This document shows positions 1,656 to 64,000 of a DNA stretch of 64,000 nt, piece by piece. Source of the DNA: an uncultured Methanosarcinales archaeon. Its GTDB lineage: Archaea; Nanobdellota; Nanobdellia; Woesearchaeales; UBA11576. The first letter of the stretch is position 1. Each line of letters opens with the position of its first letter. The position numbers and the translations under genes are program-made. Under the pieces are notes generated by a model. That model was given only the letters and a program-made list of their open reading frames with translations. It had not been told where the DNA came from and searched no databases. The stretch spans positions 3,099 through 67,098 of the forward strand of contig CAZLYC010000006.1 in the NCBI GenBank assembly GCA_964563755.1. The letters are read 5' to 3'.

Positions 1656-3149
1656 TCATATTAGCTTGAGGCCAAGGCCTTTGAGCGATTTCATTAGCTC
1701 TTCCTCTGGCGTCTCAAGCGATACTTTCGCGAGGACTGCAAGGTTCTTCCTCAGTCCTATGTTGGTTCCTTCAGGAGTTTCCATGCAGCAGAGCCTTCCT
1801 GCGTGCGTTGGATGCAGTTCTCTTGCCTCAAAATTCTCCTGTGATGCTGACAATGGCGATACTACTCTTTGCAGGTGCGACATCGTCTCAAGGTAGTTGA
1901 GTCTCTGTATTCTCTGAGAGATTCCCTTCCTTCCTCCGACCCACGCGCCTGTGGCCATTGATGAATATATCCTCTGTGTCAATAGCTTGTCCCTGATTAT
2001 GACTTTTATTGACGGGAACTTGCCTCTCTTGACTATCCTCTGGAAGTTGTATAATAGGTCGTTCACGAGGACTTTGAGGTTCACTGTGAAAAGGTCTGCG
2101 AGAAGGTCTCCAGAAAGTTTGAGCCTCTTGTTCGCATAGTGGTCCTTGTCGTCAAGTGGCAGCTCTCCTGCAGAGACCAGTATGTATCTCTTTATGAGCT
2201 TACACAGGTTGTATGCCTTGAGTATCCTGTCCTTCGGGTTCATGCCGAGGTGAGGCAGCAGGTATTTGTCGAGTATCTCTTTCATCCTCTCTATCCTTAT
2301 CTCCTTTGCCTGGGTTATGCCTGTCTTCTTCGCTATGTAGTCCATGGCATCCTCGTCGGTCTTGATATCCGCGAATTCAAACAGGTTGACAAGGACAGAA
2401 TCGAACTGCCTTTCCTTTGAGATGAAGGTCATTATGTCCTCGTCCTTTGTGAGGCCGAGAGCTTTTATTATGACGATGAGCGGTATCCTCCTTACCCTTG
2501 TGAATGTGAGGTAGAATATGCCGTCCTTGAGCTTCTCGAATGTGTGCGGTATCTTGAATGAAGCGCCTTCAGAGAACATCTTGCCGACGTATTCTGATAC
2601 GCCGATGCTCTCCTTGTCTATTAGGAGCTTGTTCGCTGCCAGGTCCTCGACGCTGATGAGGACTTTCTCTGTGCCGTTGATTATGAAGTATCCGCCAAGG
2701 TCCGCGGGGTCTTCACCGTGCGCCGCAAGCTCTTCCTTTGACATCTTGTGGAGATGGCAGTACTTTGACTTGAGCATTATAGGTATCGATCCTATCTGTG
2801 TCGTGAATGATTCTCTCTGCACGCCGTTTATGTGTGCGCTCACTTCTATGAAGCATGGCGCAGCGTAGCTTATCCTTCGGAGTCTTGCTTCGACGGGGAA
2901 CACGTTCCTCTTTGAGCCGTCTGCCTCTGTTATCTCTGGCTTTGTTACCCATATCTTGTCGAATTTTATCTTGAATTCCTCGACATTATGCGGGATTATT
3001 GTCGGCTCGACTATCTTGTTCGCATCGACTATCTTCTGCAGCTCCACGTCTATGAAGTTGTTGAATGATGCTATGTCCGATTCGACAAGCGTTGTGCCTT
3101 CGAAGAACTTCTGGACAAGGATGTCTGATTTTTTTGTATGTTCACTCAT
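1656..3149 (-). CDS. rpoB2: DNA-directed RNA polymerase subunit B'' (Rpo2N, N-terminal half of split RpoB)
   Basis: 513-aa ORF with the ...RLCCMETPEGTNIGLRKNLA... motif conserved in Rpb2. The likely start is the internal MSEHTKK, which overlaps the rpoH stop by 8 nt. The track start at 3197 would overlap rpoH by 56 nt. Confidence 0.88.
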   Translation of the reverse strand: MSEHTKKSDILVQKFFEGTTLVESDIASFNNFIDVELQKIVDANKIVEPTIIPHNVEEFKIKFDKIWVTKPEITEADGSKRNVFPVEARLRRISYAAPCFIEVSAHINGVQRESFTTQIGSIPIMLKSKYCHLHKMSKEELAAHGEDPADLGGYFIINGTEKVLISVEDLAANKLLIDKESIGVSEYVGKMFSEGASFKIPHTFEKLKDGIFYLTFTRVRRIPLIVIIKALGLTKDEDIMTFISKERQFDSVLVNLFEFADIKTDEDAMDYIAKKTGITQAKEIRIERMKEILDKYLLPHLGMNPKDRILKAYNLCKLIKRYILVSAGELPLDDKDHYANKRLKLSGDLLADLFTVNLKVLVNDLLYNFQRIVKRGKFPSIKVIIRDKLLTQRIYSSMATGAWVGGRKGISQRIQRLNYLETMSHLQRVVSPLSASQENFEARELHPTHAGRLCCMETPEGTNIGLRKNLAVLAKVSLETPEEELMKSLKGLGLKLI

Positions 3150-3378
3150 CCGCAACACCTCGGTAGAATATGGCCTTGCCTGCTGTGGGAGAGTCACGTT
3201 CTATCTTTATGACGTCTCCTGACTCGACTTCCATGCCTGCGAGCGCTGGGTCATTCTTCTTTATAGAAGGCAGCTCGTTCAATGTCACATGGTATTTTTC
3301 TAGAAGTTCATTTTTCTCCTTTTCGGAGAGCTTCTTATGTTTCGGTATGAGTACATGCTGGATTGATGGTTTCGTCAT
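3142..3378 (-). CDS. rpoH: DNA-directed RNA polymerase subunit H (Rpo5)
   Basis: 78 aa, HVLIPKHKKLSEKEKNELLEKYHVTLNELPSIKKNDP...GDVIKIERDSPTAGKAIFYRGV matches the RpoH/Rpb5 C-domain. Classic rpoH-rpoB2-rpoB1 gene order. Confidence 0.88.
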   Translation of the reverse strand: MTKPSIQHVLIPKHKKLSEKEKNELLEKYHVTLNELPSIKKNDPALAGMEVESGDVIKIERDSPTAGKAIFYRGVADE

Positions 3379-3417
3379 TTTTGACCCTCTCCTGCGCTCT
3401 CGCCCTGCTCTTTTAAC

Positions 3418-3557
3418 AGGCTGGACGGGACTTTCGAACCTCTTGTTTGAGGCTATTCGAACCCGTGACCACTCGATTTCCTCCCGTTTAGGGTAAAAGT
3501 CGAGTGCTCTATTGCCCGGCTAAAGCATTTTATGCCACCAGACTGAGCTACCAGCCT
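3418..3557 (-). tRNA. tRNA-Lys(UUU)-like gene, about 140 nt, with putative introns in the D-loop (about 26 nt), the anticodon loop 37/38 (about 16 nt) and the T-loop 59/60 (about 25 nt)
   Basis: Minus-strand read: acceptor AGGCTGG/CCAGCCT (7 bp), TA, D-stem GCTC...GAGC with an extra GGCATAAAATGCTTTAGCCGGGCAAT in the D-loop. Anticodon stem CTCGA/TCGAG with loop CTTTTA plus insert. T-arm ACGGG TTCGAA[TAGCC..GGTTCGAAAG]T CCCGT. Discriminator G. Folded by hand only. Confidence 0.6.
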
Positions 3558-3593
3558 AAATGAGCTTTATTTTATAGTTCTTGCCAAAAAATA

Positions 3594-3747
3594 CGCCCTG
3601 GCCGGGACTTTCAGGTTGGTTGCGATTTTTATATGGTTTCTAGCTTGATTCATAGTATTGTTCAACTCAAGCTGTGCGTAACCAACTTTTTGAACCCGGG
3701 TCGGAGCCGTGACAGGGCTCCATGATAGGCCACTACACTACCAGGGC
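3594..3747 (-). tRNA. tRNA-Asp(GUC) with an intron of about 81 nt in the T-loop (position 59/60)
   Basis: Minus-strand read GCCCTGGTAGTGTAGTGGCCTATCATGGAGCCCTGTCACGGCTCCGACCCGGGTTCAAA[..81 nt..]TCCCGGCCAGGGCG is nearly identical in exons to archaeal tRNA-Asp as recalled from memory (M. jannaschii). The intron has an internal long stem, GTTGGTTACG...CGCAACCAAC, and ends in GAAAG like the T-loop intron of the neighbouring tRNA. Confidence 0.75.
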
Positions 3748-4149
3748 TTGTTTTGTATTTGGCAGTCGTAAATCAGTCTATGGACTAAGAGTCGTACTAA
3801 TTGGCCCTTGCTCGCCACAGAAAGATTTAATGACCATAATCTGCCCAAATTTTAACAATTTAAAAAGATTTCGTTTATAAACGTAAACAGCGGTTTTTTA
3901 TTTGTTTTTGATTTATTTCAAAAAGCGCATAATCTGCTTAAACAAGCCATATGCTCGTTTAAACTGTTGTCACCGAAAAGTTTAAATATGTGCTTCGCCA
4001 TGATTTGGTAGTTCTTAGATTATCGTAGCATTGGTTACCATTAGTCCTAACTATATTATTAGAGGTATTTCAGCGTAAAAATCACGTAGTGCGCGGAAAA
4101 GTTCCTCATCCTCACAAAGTGAGGGTTAAACAAGCGGGGGTTTGGAAAA

Positions 4150-4251
4150 ATGTCAGACTGGGAAATGGTAATGAGAGATGATGACGACTTTGACAGCGAC
4201 TTCGATAACGACGATTCAGACGGCGATGATGACGGCGACGACAAGTGGTAA
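4150..4251 (+). CDS. Candidate micro-ORF: 33-aa hyper-acidic peptide MSDWEMVMRDDDDFDSDFDNDDSDGDDDGDDKW
   Basis: ATG preceded by a GGGGG motif about 8 nt upstream and an inverted repeat CCTCAC..GTGAGG. Followed by a T-rich tract. Not in the ORF track (shorter than 60 aa). Coding status is unproven. Confidence 0.3.
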   Translation: MSDWEMVMRDDDDFDSDFDNDDSDGDDDGDDKW

Positions 4252-4516
4252 GTCAAATCTTTTGTTTTTTTAACTGATTATTTTCTTTTTAGCCACCACC
4301 GAAATCCAGCTTAAGCTATATGCTATTTTCTTTTTTTAACGCACAAAGAACTGACTAATTATTCAGTCGCTTGATCGCATCTTGTCTGCGCACTCTTTAC
4401 AATAGAAATAGTCTTTTTCGACGACAGATCTCTTATGGCACAGTCTGCAGGTTATTACTCTCTTGTACCCTGTTATCCTGGGCAATGTGCTTACTGGCCT
4501 TCTTGTTGACATTTTA

Positions 4517-10495: not shown

Positions 10496-10624
10496 TCCCC
10501 GCGGCCGGATTTGAACCAGCAACCTTCCGGTATCCGCTGTCCCGCTGTCCTTCAGTGGCCTTGCCATTGTCTGCGGGGGCTGTAGTAGCTACAGCCGGAC
10601 GCTCAACCATTAAGCTACGCGGGG
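10496..10624 (-). tRNA. tRNA-Tyr(GUA) with a canonical 37/38 intron of about 57 nt
   Basis: Minus-strand read CCCCGCG TA GCT..AGC G TCCGG CTGTAG[CTACTACAGCC...GGAT]A CCGGA AGGTT GCTGG TTCAAAT CCGGC CGCGGGG A. Exon and intron pair (GGCTGTAG/CTACAGCC) as in a BHB motif. Confidence 0.72.
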
Positions 10625-15237: not shown

Positions 15238-16545
15238 ATGAAAGTGAGTTTCGATTATATTGACCTGAAGTATCTTCCTTCTCCTGATGATCTTATTGCA
15301 GAATATTACCTTGAGCCTAACAAGGGAGTTAAGTTCGAAAGGGCTGCGAATCATATTGCCGCAGAGTCAAGCATCGGGACATGGACAGACATTTCTACGC
15401 TTTCACCGATTACAGCTTCAAGGCTGAAGCCTCATGTATATGATATTAAGAAGGATTTCTGGGGCAAGAGAGGGACGATTAAGGTCGCGTACAGCCCGGA
15501 GCTTTTTGAGGCAGGAAACATGCCTGAGATACTGTCGAGCATAGCAGGTAATGTTTTCGGGATGAAGGATGTGCAGAACTTGAGGCTTAATGATATTCGT
15601 TTTCCTGAGAAGATAATGAAAAAGTTCAAGGGTCCTAAATTTGGCATTGAAGGCATAAGGAAACTTCTGAAAGTTCCAGAGAGGCCTCTTTGTGGGACAA
15701 TAATCAAGCCGAAAGTCGGTCTTGATGAGTCTATGCACGCAAAGGTCGCGTATGAGGCCTGGATGGGCGGGCTTGACATAGTGAAGGATGATGAGAATCT
15801 CAGCAGCATGTCATTCAACAATTTCCAGAAACGCGTACAGCTCACCCTAAAAGCAAGGGACAAGGCTGAGAAAGAGACAGGGGAGAAGAAGATGTACATG
15901 GCGAACATCACTTCAGAGACTGATGAGATGAAGAAGCGTGCTGATTTCATCAGGAGGAATGGCGGTGAGTATTTCATGATTGATATCCTTACAGTCGGAT
16001 GGGCAGGATTGCAGACTATGAGGAATTACGATGAGAAACTGAAGATGGTCATCCACGCCCACAGGGCGATGCATGGCGCGCTTACAAGGAACCCAAGGCA
16101 CGGAATCTCGATGCTTTCAATAGCTAAATGCGCAAGGCTGATTGGAGTGGACCAGTTGCACATAGGTACTGCAGCAGTGGGAAAGATGCACGGCTCTGCT
16201 ACAGAAGAGACTGAGATAGAGACTGAAGTCGAGACATACTGGTTCAAGCCAGGTCAAGGCAGTTCTGCGCTTGAGCAGCAATGGAACGGCATAAAGCCGG
16301 TGCTTGCTGTCGCGTCCGGAGGCCTTCATGCTGGCATGACAGAGAAACTGGTTAAGCTCATGGGAAAGAATATCGTCGCGCAGTATGGCGGCGGAGTTCA
16401 TTGGCATCCCGAAGGGACCAGGAAGGGTGCGATGGGTGTAAGACAGGCAATAGACGCCGTGAATCAGGGAGTCACGCTTGAAGAATACGCTAAGTCACAC
16501 AAGGAACTGAAAGATGCTTTGGATAAGTTCGGGATGGTTAGATGA
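15238..16545 (+). CDS. rbcL: Ribulose-1,5-bisphosphate carboxylase/oxygenase large subunit, form III (archaeal type)
   Basis: GGLDIVKDDENLSSMSF (active-site Lys region), KMVIHAHRAMHGA, GGGVHWHP motifs. 435 aa. Confidence 0.93.
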   Translation: MKVSFDYIDLKYLPSPDDLIAEYYLEPNKGVKFERAANHIAAESSIGTWTDISTLSPITASRLKPHVYDIKKDFWGKRGTIKVAYSPELFEAGNMPEILSSIAGNVFGMKDVQNLRLNDIRFPEKIMKKFKGPKFGIEGIRKLLKVPERPLCGTIIKPKVGLDESMHAKVAYEAWMGGLDIVKDDENLSSMSFNNFQKRVQLTLKARDKAEKETGEKKMYMANITSETDEMKKRADFIRRNGGEYFMIDILTVGWAGLQTMRNYDEKLKMVIHAHRAMHGALTRNPRHGISMLSIAKCARLIGVDQLHIGTAAVGKMHGSATEETEIETEVETYWFKPGQGSSALEQQWNGIKPVLAVASGGLHAGMTEKLVKLMGKNIVAQYGGGVHWHPEGTRKGAMGVRQAIDAVNQGVTLEEYAKSHKELKDALDKFGMVR

Positions 16546-23527: not shown

Positions 23528-24760
23528 TCATTTCTGTTTTGGTTCTCCTATGTAGCAAGCATTCTTATCTGGTTTCTTGTATCTTCCTCTTGCCTGCTCC
23601 CTGAACTTGACCATTGCTGAATATACCTGGTTGACATAGTTGACTGTCTCACCTATGAAGGGTATGCCATGAGTCCCATTGTTGCCTGCATTCTGCAGCG
23701 CAGTCGGGCTTGCATTGTACCCTGCTGCTGCAATCCTGAAGTCTCCATTGTATTTTTTCAGCAGGTCTGCATGATGATGCACAGCAGCGTCAATAGTCAT
23801 TATCACAGATAATCTCTCGTCAACTTCTGAGAGATATTGGTCTAGCAGTATCTGTTTCTCGCGCTCTTTCTGTTCTTTTGTCTTAATCTGCATCTTCGTC
23901 GCTCTTGCTACCCTCTCTTCATATGCCTGTCTCTGCTCTATCTCGCGTATCCTCTGCGGAACCTGTTTTGATGCGAGGTCTATGTAATTTGTATATTCCG
24001 CATGTGCTGCGTTGAGGTTTCTTTCGAAAACCTCTGCCTCTGCTATGAGGTAGAAGTATTTTTCTATGTCTGCTGAATTAGATGATATGAAATTTCTTAC
24101 ATCATCTCTTATTTTGTCAGGTGTCGAATCCTGGCCTATCATCCTCTCAAGCTTTGAGAGCAGTGTGCCTCTTATCTCTGACGATGCTTTCCATTTGTCC
24201 CTCGCCTTCCAGAGGTTCTGCCTGCCTATTTTCCAGCTGTAAGGCTCGTTCGTCCTAAGACCATATCTCTGTCCTGTAGATTCTATGAACTGTGCATCGC
24301 CTAAAGCTCCGGCAGGTGAGACTATGACTTTGCCGAATCTTGATTCCTGCCATATTATTGCTAGTGTGAACATCGGGTCGACCGGCCATATCTCAGCATA
24401 TCTCTCGACAGATTCGAGTATGTAAGGGAAGTATTTTCTTGCATCCGGGTTTGACCTTAGGAACTGCTCAAAATCATAGCTGCTCTCTGTGCAGAGTGAT
24501 TCTTTCAGTTTGCTCTGTGCATCGTCTGCCCTGCTCTCGCATTCAATTATGTCTACTGAGTGCCTATTCACTTGATCGTCCAGGCAAGATATATTATGTT
24601 TCAATGAAGCGTTCTCCTGCGTAAGCATCTCTATCTCTTGTGCGTGCCGCTTCAAGAGTTCCTGCCTGTCTTTGAACAAATCAGAATTCAAAATACTATG
24701 AGTTCCGATGGCTGCTGCGCTTATTCCTGCTACGATGATTGCTTTTTTGATTATATTCAT
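23528..24760 (-). CDS. Secreted or membrane-anchored lytic transglycosylase (SLT domain) protein
   Basis: N-terminal hydrophobic segment. SLT catalytic region IIWQESRF...SPAGALGDAQFIESTG (E-S...AGAxG.MQ pattern), and a C-terminal ...AAAGYNASP... segment whose assignment to the SLT fold is uncertain. Confidence 0.72.
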   Translation of the reverse strand: MNIIKKAIIVAGISAAAIGTHSILNSDLFKDRQELLKRHAQEIEMLTQENASLKHNISCLDDQVNRHSVDIIECESRADDAQSKLKESLCTESSYDFEQFLRSNPDARKYFPYILESVERYAEIWPVDPMFTLAIIWQESRFGKVIVSPAGALGDAQFIESTGQRYGLRTNEPYSWKIGRQNLWKARDKWKASSEIRGTLLSKLERMIGQDSTPDKIRDDVRNFISSNSADIEKYFYLIAEAEVFERNLNAAHAEYTNYIDLASKQVPQRIREIEQRQAYEERVARATKMQIKTKEQKEREKQILLDQYLSEVDERLSVIMTIDAAVHHHADLLKKYNGDFRIAAAGYNASPTALQNAGNNGTHGIPFIGETVNYVNQVYSAMVKFREQARGRYKKPDKNACYIGEPKQK

Positions 24761-25940: not shown

Positions 25941-27050
25941 TTATTCTTTAAGCACCAGTTCCACAATCGCTTCTGTGTGCGGAGTCTGGGGAAAAAGGTC
26001 AAACATTGCTGCGCTCTTTAGCTGATATTCCTTGAATTTTGGTATGTCTTTTCCAAGCTGCTGGATATTGCATGATATATATAGTATTACTTTAGGCTTG
26101 AGCATCTTTAACTCAAGTATGGTCTTCGGGTGCATGCCTGATCTCGGCGGGTCTGTTATTACGAAGAGCGGTTCTGGAAGTTCAAGTTTTTTCAGCTGCA
26201 TCGCGTCAAGAAGCACGGCCTTTGTGTTTGTCGCATTGTTCATTTTTATATTCTCATTTGCTGCATCTATGCATTGCTTCACGCTCTCAACCGTCGTTAC
26301 TCCTTTAAAAAGCGGCGAATTGTTTATCCCAAAAGTGCCTATCCCGCCATAAAGGTCAAGTAGGTGCGAATTCTTCGTGTCATACTTCTTGAGCAGTTCA
26401 TTGCAGTAACTGTGCATCGTTTCAGCCATCTCGTGGTTGTTCTGTGAGAATCCCTGCACAGAATAGATAAAATTGTTACCAAGATAGCTCTCTTTCAGCA
26501 TGTCTTTTCCCTTGACTACAAAGAAATCATCGGATACGCTGATGTCTGTTATTGACGGCGCATAAGTGACGATTATATTATTAGCAGTGGTTTCTTTCGC
26601 GAACTTCTTTATCTTCTCTATCGCTTCACCGACTCTTGTTGAGTCGCTGTTGAGAACAAACGAGATTGATGAATCATTCTGGGGTGTCCGTATGACAGCA
26701 TATCTAAACGTGCCTGATTTCCTGCTCACATCGAAATAATCAGGCTCCCTGAAGAATTCCCTAACCTCTTTCATAAGGATATTTAGCTTCTCATTCGATA
26801 TTGCGCACGAATCAACAGTCACTGTCTCTTTCCAGTCGCCTTTCTTGCGGAGACCGACCCCGTTCTTTGAGAAGACAAAGTCCATCCTGTTCCTGTAGCC
26901 ATACTCATTAGCAGAGAATACTTCGATGTCATCCTGTCCTATCAGTGCTGCAAGAAGTTTTTTCTTGTGATCGAGCTGCGCAGGATAGTCTATGTGCTGG
27001 GTTGAGCAGCCGCCGCATCTTCCAAAGTAAGGGCATCTTGGTGTCGCCAT
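25941..27050 (-). CDS. RNA (uracil-5-)-methyltransferase, TrmA/RumA family (TRAM plus class I SAM MTase)
   Basis: N-terminal Cys cluster CPYFGRCGGC, SAM-binding DLYGGIGTF, C-terminal catalytic DPPRSG. Start set at MATPRC. Confidence 0.8.
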   Translation of the reverse strand: MATPRCPYFGRCGGCSTQHIDYPAQLDHKKKLLAALIGQDDIEVFSANEYGYRNRMDFVFSKNGVGLRKKGDWKETVTVDSCAISNEKLNILMKEVREFFREPDYFDVSRKSGTFRYAVIRTPQNDSSISFVLNSDSTRVGEAIEKIKKFAKETTANNIIVTYAPSITDISVSDDFFVVKGKDMLKESYLGNNFIYSVQGFSQNNHEMAETMHSYCNELLKKYDTKNSHLLDLYGGIGTFGINNSPLFKGVTTVESVKQCIDAANENIKMNNATNTKAVLLDAMQLKKLELPEPLFVITDPPRSGMHPKTILELKMLKPKVILYISCNIQQLGKDIPKFKEYQLKSAAMFDLFPQTPHTEAIVELVLKE

Positions 27051-27106
27051 GTATATTCCAATAGTTGGCGAAAGATTAAAATATCTTCCTAACAGAAGAG
27101 TCAATC

Positions 27107-52886: not shown

Positions 52887-52914
52887 ACAGAATTTTTAAA
52901 GAAAAAATAAAAAT

Positions 52915-52988
52915 GGGGCTACGAGGATTCGAACCCCGGTCGGACGCACCCCAAGCGCCAGTGATAGCCAAGCTACACTATAGCCCCG
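52915..52988 (-). tRNA. tRNA-Pro (GGG anticodon read; UGG also possible), intron-less
   Basis: Minus-strand read GGGGCTA TA GTGT..CAC T GGCGC TTGGGGT GCGTC CGAC CGGGG TTCGAAT CCTCG TAGCCCC A. A canonical 74-nt cloverleaf. Confidence 0.85.
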
Positions 52989-62797: not shown

Positions 62798-64000
62798 TCA
62801 ACCGAAGAACTGGCCCAGCTTGCTCTGTTTCTTCTCTCCGACAAGCTCTTCTGAGCTGTAGCCGAATACCTCGAATATCTTCTCTACTGCGGGTATGACC
62901 TGGTTAGTTATGTAGTAGTCTGCATCATACTCTCCTTTCTTGACCTCGCCAGGCAGCTTTGCCCTGTCACGTATCTTCTCTTTTCCTGAAGTGACTACAT
63001 AATCTATTATCATGCCTGGGTATATGTCGACTCCTTTTGCCTTGAGCCGTTTAGCCGCTGCTACATGAGGACCGACTGATCCGTAAGACTCTATGCCTTT
63101 CGTGAGTTGTGTTGATATTGTAACATCCTCGGTTGCGCAGTTCTTGTCTTTCAGGTCGTTCACGACTTTCCTGACGTACTCGTATGCTTTCTTGACATTG
63201 TTCTCCTTGAGTATTATCCCTATCACTTCTTCCTGCGTCCTCTTTGCGATTGGGCTGACATTCCTCCTTACTGTCTCGAATCCCTTAATCTTTATGTTGT
63301 CCTCTTCATCTATCAGTGCGTATTTTTTCTTCGCTCCTGCCTCTGCCTCTTTTATCGATACGAACAATGCTCTTTTGTAGCTGCCCTGGAAATCGAGTTC
63401 CATCATTCCCGGAAGCTTCGTGTTTATGTCCTCGCAGAACTTGAGCGCGTCTTCCTTTGTCTTGCCTTTGAGGTGAAGGAATATTGAATCAGTGTCTGAG
63501 TACAGCACGTCAAAGCCTTTTTCTTTCGCGCCATCTATCACCTTGTGGATGTAGTGCCTTCCGTATGCTGTGACGCTTCTTGCGCAGTCCTTGTTGTACC
63601 ATCTGGCCGCGAAGAAACCGAGGTAACCGTAGAATGAATTGGACAATGTTTTCAGTGATTCCTGTCTTGCGTCAAGGAATACTTTCTTCTTCTTGTCCGC
63701 GGTCTTCATTATCTCCTTGACCCTCATCCTCCTTGTGATTATGTCTTTTAGGACTGATGAGAAGAATCCTTCTTTCTTCTTGCAGAACCATAGTTCTTTG
63801 TCTTCTATCGGGACTTTCTCTTTTCCCTTGCAGCAGTCGCAGTTGAGTGTCTCTATGCTTATGTTATGTGACACAATTATAGACGGGTAAAGGCTCCTGA
63901 AGTCGAACACGACAAGATTCTCGTAGAGTCCAGGCTTAGGTTCAAAAACGAATGCTCCTTTTATCCTCTCGCTCATCCTTGTCTCGAGGACGTCATTGTG
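62798..64000 (-). CDS. polB: DNA polymerase family B, C-terminal part. The gene continues beyond the right window edge
   Basis: Motif A-like DFRSLYPSII, motif C YSDTDSIFL, KKKYA region. The frame stays open upstream of the listed Met to position 64000. Confidence 0.9.
   Translation of the reverse strand, partial: HNDVLETRMSERIKGAFVFEPKPGLYENLVVFDFRSLYPSIIVSHNISIETLNCDCCKGKEKVPIEDKELWFCKKKEGFFSSVLKDIITRRMRVKEIMKTADKKKKVFLDARQESLKTLSNSFYGYLGFFAARWYNKDCARSVTAYGRHYIHKVIDGAKEKGFDVLYSDTDSIFLHLKGKTKEDALKFCEDINTKLPGMMELDFQGSYKRALFVSIKEAEAGAKKKYALIDEEDNIKIKGFETVRRNVSPIAKRTQEEVIGIILKENNVKKAYEYVRKVVNDLKDKNCATEDVTISTQLTKGIESYGSVGPHVAAAKRLKAKGVDIYPGMIIDYVVTSGKEKIRDRAKLPGEVKKGEYDADYYITNQVIPAVEKIFEVFGYSSEELVGEKKQSKLGQFFG

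What the first reader, a model, noticed from the sequence alone, without database searches (positions are those of the whole stretch)
3418..3747. Two adjacent tRNAs (Lys-like, Asp) with non-canonical T-loop (59/60) introns. The Lys gene apparently has three introns
tRNA-Asp (3594-3747) has exons nearly identical to known archaeal tRNA-Asp but carries an insertion of about 81 nt between T-loop positions 59 and 60, with a long internal stem. The neighbouring tRNA-Lys(UUU)-like gene (3418-3557) shows insertions in the D-loop, at 37/38, and again at 59/60. Both T-loop introns end in GAAAG before the T60 exon. Multi-intron tRNAs with non-canonical intron positions are restricted to a few archaeal lineages and require a broad-specificity splicing endonuclease. 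They are also a plausible blind spot for automated tRNA finders.
Basis: partly seen in the sequence, partly recalled or inferred. Interest (0 to 1): 0.55.

Follow-up and report, generated by a model that had tools for sequence, protein, structure and literature searches.

The report
Intron-split tRNA-Asp and tRNA-Lys genes
Two neighbouring transfer-RNA genes of an uncultured DPANN (Woesearchaeota-like) archaeon are broken up by one and three short enzyme-spliced introns, a known archaeal arrangement that the two general RNA finders tried here fail to detect.

Summary
On the minus strand, tRNA-Asp(GUC) (3747..3594) carries one 81-nt intron at T-loop position 59/60. tRNA-Lys(UUU) (3557..3417) carries three introns: 26 nt in the D-loop (19/20), 16 nt at 37/38 and 25 nt at 59/60.

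Removing them in silico gives perfect 73- and 74-nt cloverleaves. [quoted passage not shown]

The gene order tRNA-Asp, tRNA-Lys, rpoH, rpoB'' recurs in seven related Woesearchaeota/Nanoarchaeota genomes. There the same three sites are occupied or empty in different combinations. One relative has both genes intron-free, with the predicted exon junctions. The closest relative also has a three-intron tRNA-Lys. Exon stems and the BHB central helix covary.

"GAAAG" at the end of both T-loop introns follows from BHB geometry: YGAA pairs with the T-loop UUCR, and AG lies in the bulge. ARAGORN and the Rfam tRNA model miss both genes.

This is a known kind. 59/60 and multiple introns are published for DPANN archaea, and three-intron tRNAs for Thermoproteales. 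These are new members, not a new mechanism. Splicing and the genome's EndA type were not tested.

The parts
3594..3747 (-). tRNA-Asp(GUC) gene, 154 nt, with one intron. Mature product is 73 nt and no CCA is encoded.
   Evidence: in-silico spliced sequence called tRNA-Asp(gtc) by ARAGORN. Orthologues in L001-L007.
3608..3688 (-). 81-nt BHB intron at T-loop 59/60 of tRNA-Asp. Central helix H is UUCA (nt 54-57, 3694..3691) paired with UGAA (3613..3610). The bulges are AA|A and AG|U. h is the T-stem. h' is 7 bp after one A.C mismatch.
   Evidence: (the unique BHB-consistent splice solution).
3417..3557 (-). tRNA-Lys(UUU) gene, 141 nt, four exons (20, 18, 22 and 14 nt) and three introns. Mature product is 74 nt.
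   Evidence: Orthologues.
3512..3537 (-). 26-nt D-loop intron of tRNA-Lys between G19 and U20. H is GUCU/GGGC, the bulges are GG|U and AA|U, and h' is GGC/GCC. h is the D-stem, offset by an A14.A21 mismatch, so this is a relaxed HBh'-like motif.
   Evidence: An orthologous intron at the same site occurs in L001, L002 and L006 tRNA-Lys and in L005 tRNA-Asp.
3478..3493 (-). 16-nt canonical 37/38 intron of tRNA-Lys. H is CUUU/GAGG, the bulges are UA|C and AA|A, h is the anticodon stem and h' is 2 bp.
   Evidence: Introns at the same site occur in L001 (48 nt) and L005 (14 nt), and ARAGORN reports canonical introns in tRNA-Lys of L011 and L013.
3431..3455 (-). 25-nt T-loop 59/60 intron of tRNA-Lys, a strict hBHBh' motif. 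H is UUCG (3461..3458) paired with CGAA (3436..3433). The bulges are AA|U and AG|U, h is the 5-bp T-stem and h' is 6 bp.
   Evidence: (0 of 20000 shuffles as good). The minimum-free-energy fold shows two opposed 3-nt bulges.
3142..3378 (-). rpoH (RNA polymerase subunit H, Rpb5 C-terminal domain), immediately downstream of tRNA-Lys. Context gene that anchors the synteny.
   Evidence: PF01191, E 2e-25.
1656..3197 (-). rpoB'' (N-terminal half of a split RNA polymerase subunit B). Context gene, used to fetch the orthologous loci.
   Evidence: 88% identity to a Nanoarchaeota MAG; 67-73% to Woesearchaeota and related DPANN MAGs.

Best explanation
These are two functional, intron-containing archaeal tRNA genes, tRNA-Asp(GUC) with one intron and tRNA-Lys(UUU) with three, in a DPANN (Woesearchaeota/Nanoarchaeota-type) genome.

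Proposed mechanism. Each gene is transcribed as a precursor. At every exon-intron boundary the RNA folds into a bulge-helix-bulge motif: two 3-nt bulges on opposite strands, 4 bp apart. For the 59/60 introns the 4-bp helix pairs the conserved T-loop UUCR (nt 54-57) with YGAA near the intron's 3' end, and the T-stem serves as the outer helix. For the D-loop intron the helix pairs D-loop GYCU with intron GGGC. For 37/38 it pairs anticodon-loop CUUU with intron GAGG.

The archaeal splicing endonuclease (EndA) would cut after the second nucleotide of each bulge, and an RtcB-type ligase would join the exons. The products would be mature 73-nt and 74-nt tRNAs.

What is shown here: gene structure, BHB geometry, conservation and covariation. 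What is inferred from the known pathway: cleavage by EndA, ligation, and use of the tRNAs in translation.
For: 1. In-silico removal of the four inserts gives canonical cloverleaves that ARAGORN calls Asp(gtc) and Lys(ttt).
2. All four junctions have a fully paired 4-bp helix with 3-nt bulges in the exact register. The chance per intron is 0.014-0.083. The same register rule reproduces the canonical 37/38 intron of the window's tRNA-Tyr.
3. The synteny tRNA-Asp, tRNA-Lys, rpoH, rpoB'' is kept in L001-L007. L007 has both genes intron-free with exactly the predicted junctions, and L004 tRNA-Lys and L002 tRNA-Asp are also intron-free. L001 (88% RpoB'' identity) has a three-intron tRNA-Lys at the same three sites, with largely different intron sequences.
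4. Across 18 orthologous introns the central helix is 4/4 paired in 15 and 3/4 in 2. It covaries with the exon: A57-U three times, G57-C four times, G57.U once.
5. Spliced orthologues keep the cloverleaf in 100% (Lys) and 95.9% (Asp) of cells. Each has 9 pairs with compensatory changes, with 0 of 500 shuffles as good, and the signal collapses when partners are slid.
6. Literature: a BHB is two 3-nt bulges separated by a 4-nt helix (PMC6379350). 59/60 introns occur in the DPANN archaeon ARMAN-2 (PMC3239211). Archaeal tRNA genes hold up to three introns (PMC8450103). Disrupted tRNA genes are enriched in DPANN lineages, and a Woesearchaeota genome was among those surveyed (PMC5829648).
Against: - There are no transcript data, so splicing is inferred.
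- No EndA or RtcB gene was found in the window (about 50 of the 68 ORFs called were scanned against Pfam). The rest of the genome is not available, so the enzyme partner is assumed.
- Two motifs are relaxed: an A.C mismatch at the base of h' in tRNA-Asp, and an A.A mismatch next to the 3' bulge of the Lys D-loop intron.
- The thermodynamic minimum-free-energy fold of the Asp precursor leaves the AU-rich 4-bp helix open. The full cloverleaf-plus-three-BHB structure of pre-tRNA-Lys evaluates at -42.8 kcal/mol against an MFE of -62.5 kcal/mol.
- It is not known whether the genome holds other, intron-free copies of these tRNAs.
Confidence: 0.9

Rival explanations
1. The genes are pseudogenes: former tRNA genes inactivated by random insertions and no longer producing functional tRNA.
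For: Standard finders do not call them. There is no expression evidence. Two of the four BHB motifs are imperfect.
Against: - The exons are intact and give perfect cloverleaves after splicing.
- The insert boundaries fall in the BHB register at all four sites.
- The same sites are interrupted in orthologues spanning 67-88% RpoB'' identity, while exon stems show compensatory changes. That pattern indicates purifying selection on the spliced product.
- Random insertions would not land repeatedly at 19/20, 37/38 and 59/60.
Confidence: 0.04
2. The inserts are self-splicing (group I or group II) introns, or other mobile elements, rather than endonuclease-spliced BHB introns.
For: Group I introns in tRNA genes hide those genes from annotation in the similarly reduced Patescibacteria (PMC13011429, abstract seen). 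Group I introns have also been reported in archaea (PMC6125680, title seen).
Against: - The inserts are 16-81 nt here and 13-168 nt in relatives, far below ribozyme size (my own knowledge of group I and II intron sizes).
- No Rfam intron family matches.
- Every boundary fits the BHB geometry instead.
- No repeated copies occur elsewhere in the window or the fetched loci.
Confidence: 0.01
3. The inserts are not removed. The genes encode enlarged tRNA-like RNAs with expansion segments.
For: None beyond the lack of transcript data.
Against: - An 81-nt insert inside the T-loop and a 26-nt insert inside the D-loop would disrupt the D-loop/T-loop interaction that forms the tRNA elbow (established tRNA structural knowledge).
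- Insert sequence and length are not conserved, and the inserts are absent from orthologues. That argues against a function in the mature RNA.
Confidence: 0.01

Closest known systems
ARMAN-2 (Candidatus Micrarchaeum acidiphilum, DPANN) pre-tRNA-Cys(GCA) with a 59/60 intron and pre-tRNA-Pro(GGG) with 53/54 plus 59/60 introns (Fujishima et al. 2011, PMC3239211)
   Same: Same superphylum and the same non-canonical 59/60 T-loop position. Boundaries are BHB or relaxed BHB, there is more than one intron per gene, and the genes were found only by dedicated searches.
   Different: Here there are three introns in one gene, in the D-loop, anticodon loop and T-loop, and the host is a Woesearchaeota-type lineage. 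ARMAN-2 uses an epsilon2 EndA. The EndA type here is unknown, and Kaneta et al. 2018 report alpha4 enzymes with an L3 loop in multiple DPANN lineages.
Multi-intron tRNA genes of Thermoproteales (Sugahara et al. 2008, as cited in PMC4033280 and PMC8450103)
   Same: Up to three BHB introns per tRNA gene at canonical and non-canonical positions. Intron presence or absence turns over quickly among relatives.
   Different: A different phylum and a different enzyme type, (alpha-beta)2 EndA with the Crenarchaea-specific loop. In Thermoproteales similar intron sequences recur in different tRNAs, which points to transposition. Here no intron sequence is repeated in the window or the fetched loci.
[quoted passage not shown] 2018, PMC5829648)
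   Same: The same lineage was surveyed with tRNAscan-SE 2.0. [quoted passage not shown] It also reports incomplete tRNA sets that suggest undetected disrupted genes.
   Different: That paper's text, as held here, gives no gene-level description of a three-intron tRNA-Lys or of the Asp-Lys-rpoH locus. The comparative presence/absence pattern across seven genomes is worked out here.
Canonical archaeal 37/38 BHB introns, for example the tRNA-Tyr(GUA) gene in this same window at 10624..10496
   Same: The same motif and the same cleavage register (2|1 within each 3-nt bulge, 4-bp helix).
   Different: Canonical introns lie only in the anticodon loop and are handled by ordinary tRNA finders when intron search is on.

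Membership tests
Archaeal BHB (endonuclease-spliced) tRNA introns | Two 3-nt bulges on opposite strands, separated by a 4-bp helix at the exon-intron boundaries | tested here: met
   All four window introns have the 4-bp helix fully paired with 3-nt bulges in register. The definition is from PMC6379350.
Archaeal BHB (endonuclease-spliced) tRNA introns | Flanking helices h and h' (strict hBHBh'), or at least one of them (relaxed hBH or HBh') | tested here: met
   Lys 59/60: h 5 bp, h' 6 bp (strict). Lys 37/38: h is the 5-bp anticodon stem (the unbroken paired run counted by the script is 7), h' 2 bp. Asp 59/60: h 5 bp, h' 7 bp after an A.C mismatch. Lys D-loop: h' 3 bp, h is the D-stem offset by an A.A mismatch (relaxed).
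Archaeal BHB (endonuclease-spliced) tRNA introns | Removing the intron at the bulge cleavage sites restores a canonical tRNA | tested here: met
   The spliced products are perfect cloverleaves, called Asp(gtc) and Lys(ttt). The junctions are identical to those of the intron-free orthologues in L007, L004 and L002.
Archaeal BHB (endonuclease-spliced) tRNA introns | The motif is maintained by covariation in related sequences | tested here: met
   18 orthologous introns: 15 with 4/4 and 2 with 3/4 helix pairs. Exon nt 57 covaries with the intron partner as A-U, G-C or G.U.
Archaeal BHB (endonuclease-spliced) tRNA introns | Cleavage by EndA and ligation by RtcB in vivo or in vitro | not testable with these tools
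   No transcript data or enzyme assay is available. No EndA was found among about 50 of the 68 ORFs called in the window.
Functional tRNA gene (as opposed to a pseudogene) | Cloverleaf stems conserved through compensatory substitutions among orthologues | tested here: met
   Lys: 100% of cells paired and 9 pairs changed on both sides. Asp: 95.9% paired and 9 such pairs. 0 of 500 shuffles reach these values, and slid controls give 25-54% paired.
Host with a broad-specificity EndA ((alpha-beta)2, epsilon2, or alpha4 with L3 loop) | The genome encodes an EndA with a specificity loop | not tested
The expectation rests on Kaneta et al. 2018.
Group I / group II self-splicing introns | A conserved ribozyme core of several hundred nucleotides | tested here: not met
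   The inserts are 16-81 nt and have no Rfam intron hits at gathering or E-value thresholds.

The most novel reading that the evidence does not exclude
In this Woesearchaeota clade the same three sites (D-loop 19/20, 37/38, T-loop 59/60) are used in two different tRNA genes. They are filled or empty in almost every combination among close relatives, with unrelated intron sequences and lengths of 13-168 nt.

The most novel reading is ongoing, site-directed intron gain and loss, for example reverse splicing or ligation by the EndA/RtcB machinery into loops whose conserved sequence (UUCR, GYCU) supplies half of the BHB helix. This would be driven by an alpha4-type EndA with the DPANN 'L3' loop. 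It would make this clade a natural system for studying how non-canonical tRNA introns arise outside the Crenarchaeota.
Probability: 0.12. Interest if true: 0.5.

Novelty: new member of a known kind. Interest (0 to 1): 0.3.

Why it matters
Practically, these genes are invisible to ARAGORN and to the Rfam tRNA model. Genome annotations and completeness or tRNA-complement estimates for DPANN metagenome-assembled genomes will therefore under-count tRNAs unless BHB-aware tools or manual curation are used. Kaneta et al. 2018 raised exactly this concern.

Biologically, the locus gives a clean comparative series, from zero to three introns in the same orthologous gene across seven genomes. That series documents rapid turnover of non-canonical introns in a lineage whose splicing endonuclease has not been characterised. 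It does not reveal a new mechanism.

Tried and rejected
- **ARAGORN.** The default run over the window and a run with intron search on the raw region found neither gene.
- **Rfam.** At gathering threshold it found neither gene. At the E-value threshold it found only the 5' part of tRNA-Asp, at 20 bits.
- **Thermodynamic folding.** The MFE of the Asp precursor does not form the AU-rich 4-bp helix. The designed cloverleaf-plus-BHB structure of pre-tRNA-Lys is 20 kcal/mol above the MFE. My first constraint string for tRNA-Asp had wrong D-stem and anticodon-stem coordinates, so I do not use its energies.
- **Spliced-alignment script.** The dynamic-programming aligner gave spurious introns for divergent orthologues. 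I replaced it with a BHB-driven search and hand curation.
- **Relaxed BHB scan of relatives.** The scan of L001-L013 without the h' criterion was too noisy to use. I kept only its plain ARAGORN lines, which show tRNA-Tyr, tRNA-Asp and tRNA-Lys upstream of rpoB'' in the Altiarchaeota (L011) and Micrarchaeum (L013) loci too.
- **Source contig.** Looking it up through the exact RpoH protein found nothing.
- **Supplements of Kaneta et al. 2018.** They are not held, and Sugahara 2007 is not held.
- **C/D-box guide RNA in the 81-nt intron.** I looked by eye and found no C box at the 5' end, so I rejected the idea.
- **Repeated or mobile introns.** blastn-short of the four introns against the window and 80 loci found only the orthologous D-loop intron in L001.
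- **L005 tRNA-Lys D-loop intron.** It fits the BHB poorly (2/4), so its boundaries remain uncertain.

Full report
**What is there.** The flagged region reads as two tRNA genes on the minus strand.

tRNA-Asp(GUC) runs 3747..3594. Its acceptor, D and anticodon arms and the 5' half of the T-arm are contiguous up to T-loop nt 59 (…CCGGG UUCAAA). An 81-nt insert follows (3688..3608), then U60, the 3' T-stem, the 3' acceptor strand and G73.

tRNA-Lys(UUU) runs 3557..3417 and is cut into four exons of 20, 18, 22 and 14 nt by three inserts:
- 26 nt in the D-loop between G19 and U20 (3537..3512)
- 16 nt at the canonical 37/38 site (3493..3478)
- 25 nt at 59/60 (3455..3431)

Removing these inserts in silico yields 73- and 74-nt sequences. 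ARAGORN calls them tRNA-Asp(gtc) and tRNA-Lys(ttt), with perfect stems.

The unspliced genes are not found by ARAGORN, with or without intron search, or by the Rfam tRNA model at its gathering score. A permissive Rfam search sees only the 5' part of tRNA-Asp, at 20 bits.

**Are the inserts BHB introns?** Archaeal EndA recognises two 3-nt bulges separated by a 4-nt helix (PMC6379350). I used the following register. On each strand, reading 5' to 3', there is an outer helix, a 4-nt helix strand, a 3-nt bulge cut after its second nucleotide, and then the other outer helix.

This rule reproduces the canonical 57-nt 37/38 intron of the window's own tRNA-Tyr(GUA) at 10624..10496. Applied at the junctions dictated by the exons, all four inserts have a fully paired central helix:

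| Intron | Central helix | Bulges | Outer helices |
|---|---|---|---|
| Asp 59/60 | UUCA/UGAA | AA\|A, AG\|U | h T-stem 5 bp; h' 7 bp after an A.C mismatch |
| Lys 59/60 | UUCG/CGAA | AA\|U, AG\|U | h 5 bp; h' 6 bp (strict hBHBh') |
| Lys 37/38 | CUUU/GAGG | UA\|C, AA\|A | h anticodon stem; h' 2 bp |
| Lys 19/20 | GUCU/GGGC | GG\|U, AA\|U | h' 3 bp; h D-stem offset by A14.A21 (relaxed) |

With shuffled intron sequences, a 4/4 helix in that register occurs with frequency 0.014, 0.039, 0.083 and 0.039. All four together by chance is therefore of order 1e-6.

An independent exhaustive search over BHB-consistent excisions recovers the canonical mature tRNA-Asp as the only solution. It also recovers the canonical tRNA-Lys, as the first of three solutions listed. 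A strict BHB scan of the whole window on both strands, followed by in-silico splicing and ARAGORN, returns only these two genes.

YGAA is the intron strand of the central helix that pairs with T-loop UUCR (nt 54-57). The following AG are the two intron nucleotides of the 3' bulge, before U60.

**Organism and comparative evidence.** Downstream on the same strand lie rpoH (3378..3142; PF01191) and rpoB'' (3197..1656). RpoB'' is 88% identical to a Nanoarchaeota MAG (L001) and 67-73% identical to MAGs L002-L007, most of them labelled Woesearchaeota. The window therefore comes from a DPANN archaeon.

In L001-L007 the order tRNA-Asp, tRNA-Lys, rpoH, rpoB'' is kept. The introns vary:

| Locus | tRNA-Asp | tRNA-Lys |
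|---|---|---|
| L007 | intron-free | intron-free |
| L004 | 59/60 intron | intron-free |
| L002 | intron-free | D-loop intron only |
| L006 | 59/60 | 19/20 + 59/60 |
| L005 | 19/20 | D-loop + 37/38 |
| L003 | 37/38-region intron (43 nt) + 59/60 (168 nt) | anticodon-stem intron (23 nt) + 59/60 (83 nt) |
| L001 | 59/60 (19 nt) | 19/20 + 37/38 (48 nt) + 59/60, as in the window |

The intron-free orthologues carry exactly the exon junctions predicted for the window.

Of 18 orthologous introns at the three sites, 15 have a 4/4 central helix, two have 3/4 and one (L005 Lys D-loop) has 2/4. Exon nt 57 covaries with its intron partner: A-U three times, G-C four times and G.U once.

Intron sequences are otherwise unrelated, apart from the D-loop intron shared with L001. 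None recurs elsewhere in the window or in the 80 fetched loci.

Alignments of the spliced orthologues keep the cloverleaf in 100% (Lys) and 95.9% (Asp) of cells. Each has nine pairs with changes on both sides, with 0 of 500 shuffles as good, and slid controls give 25-54% paired. This is the signature of functional genes, not decaying pseudogenes.

**Mechanism.** Shown here: the gene structure, the BHB geometry, the conservation and the covariation. Inferred from the established archaeal pathway: transcription of precursors, cleavage of each bulge by EndA, exon ligation by RtcB and release of the introns.

No EndA gene lies among the roughly 50 window ORFs scanned against Pfam, out of 68 called. 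The rest of the genome is not available, so the enzyme type was not tested.

Kaneta et al. 2018 (PMC5829648) report alpha4-type EndAs carrying an 'L3' loop in multiple DPANN lineages. [quoted passage not shown] A Woesearchaeota genome was in their survey. They also note incomplete tRNA sets that point to undetected disrupted genes.

Two of the four motifs here are strict hBHBh'. From my own knowledge of archaeal EndA, which reads the BHB rather than the mature tRNA domain, these should be cut by any archaeal enzyme wherever they lie. The other two are mildly relaxed, so a broad-specificity enzyme is plausible but not strictly required by the evidence.

**Rivals.**
- Pseudogenes: contradicted by the intact exons, the register-perfect boundaries and the compensatory evolution.
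- Self-splicing introns: excluded by size (16-81 nt) and by the absence of Rfam intron matches.
- Retained expansion segments: implausible inside the D- and T-loops, and inconsistent with the non-conserved, dispensable inserts.

**Comparison with what is known.**
- 59/60 introns, and two introns in one T-loop, are described for the DPANN archaeon ARMAN-2 (PMC3239211).
- Up to three introns per gene are known in Thermoproteales and handled by tRNAscan-SE 2.0. Its BHB models were trained on Crenarchaeota, Euryarchaeota and Thaumarchaeota (PMC8450103; PMC4033280).
- DPANN tRNA disruption was surveyed by Kaneta et al. 2018, with a Woesearchaeota genome in the sample.

The finding is therefore a correct and well-read example of a known phenomenon. 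What is new is at the level of members: a three-intron tRNA-Lys and a 59/60-intron tRNA-Asp at a conserved locus, with a presence/absence series across relatives.

**Verdict.** Novelty is 'new member of a known kind'. Interest is modest (0.3). The main value is for annotation of DPANN genomes and as a comparative system for intron turnover.

Noticed in passing
window 10496-10624 (-): tRNA-Tyr(GUA) with a canonical 57-nt 37/38 BHB intron (10588..10532) and a C1-G72 pair. Rfam finds it at 54 bits, but the default ARAGORN run misses it. With tRNA-Pro(GGG) at 52914-52987 (-), three of the four tRNA genes in the window carry introns, five introns in all.
   Followed up: yes
L011 (Altiarchaeota MAG) about 2020-3761; L013 (Micrarchaeum MAG) about 3027-3867: ARAGORN finds tRNA-Tyr (with intron), tRNA-Asp (intron-free) and a tRNA-Lys-type gene with a canonical 31-32-nt intron upstream of rpoB'' in these distant DPANN genomes too. 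The tRNA cluster is therefore old, and the 37/38 intron of tRNA-Lys may predate the D-loop and T-loop introns.
   Followed up: partly
L003 3198-3483 and 3545-3725: This Woesearchaeota relative has unusually long 59/60 introns (168 nt in tRNA-Asp, 83 nt in tRNA-Lys). It also has a 23-nt intron inside the 5' strand of the tRNA-Lys anticodon stem (about 30/31). The 83-nt intron contains repetitive GTTGGC/AGCTGTT-like motifs.
   Followed up: partly
window 25941-27104 (-): An ORF matches tRNA (uracil-5-)-methyltransferase (PF05958, E 6e-28). This is a possible m5U54 writer in a genome whose T-loops are interrupted by introns. Its actual substrate (tRNA or rRNA) is unknown.
   Followed up: no
window 15238-16545 (+): RuBisCO large subunit (PF00016 and PF02788, E 1e-87). 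By my own recollection this is the form III-type enzyme often reported in DPANN genomes; the form was not determined here.
   Followed up: no
window 62798-63976 (-): A family B DNA polymerase ORF of 392 aa covers only Pfam positions 43-451 of the catalytic domain and starts just after a stop codon near the window end. It could be a split PolB gene or an interruption. The upstream part lies outside the window.
   Followed up: no
window 23528-24760 (-): A 410-aa protein carries a bacterial-type lytic transglycosylase (SLT) domain (PF01464, E 6e-14), which is unusual for an archaeon. It may act on a bacterial cell wall.
   Followed up: no
window 3748-4362: About 600 nt upstream of tRNA-Asp have no convincing ORF and no Rfam match. 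The stretch is AT-rich with several TATA-like runs. The only ORF of note is a 33-aa, highly acidic one at 4150-4251 (+). No function is assigned.
   Followed up: partly
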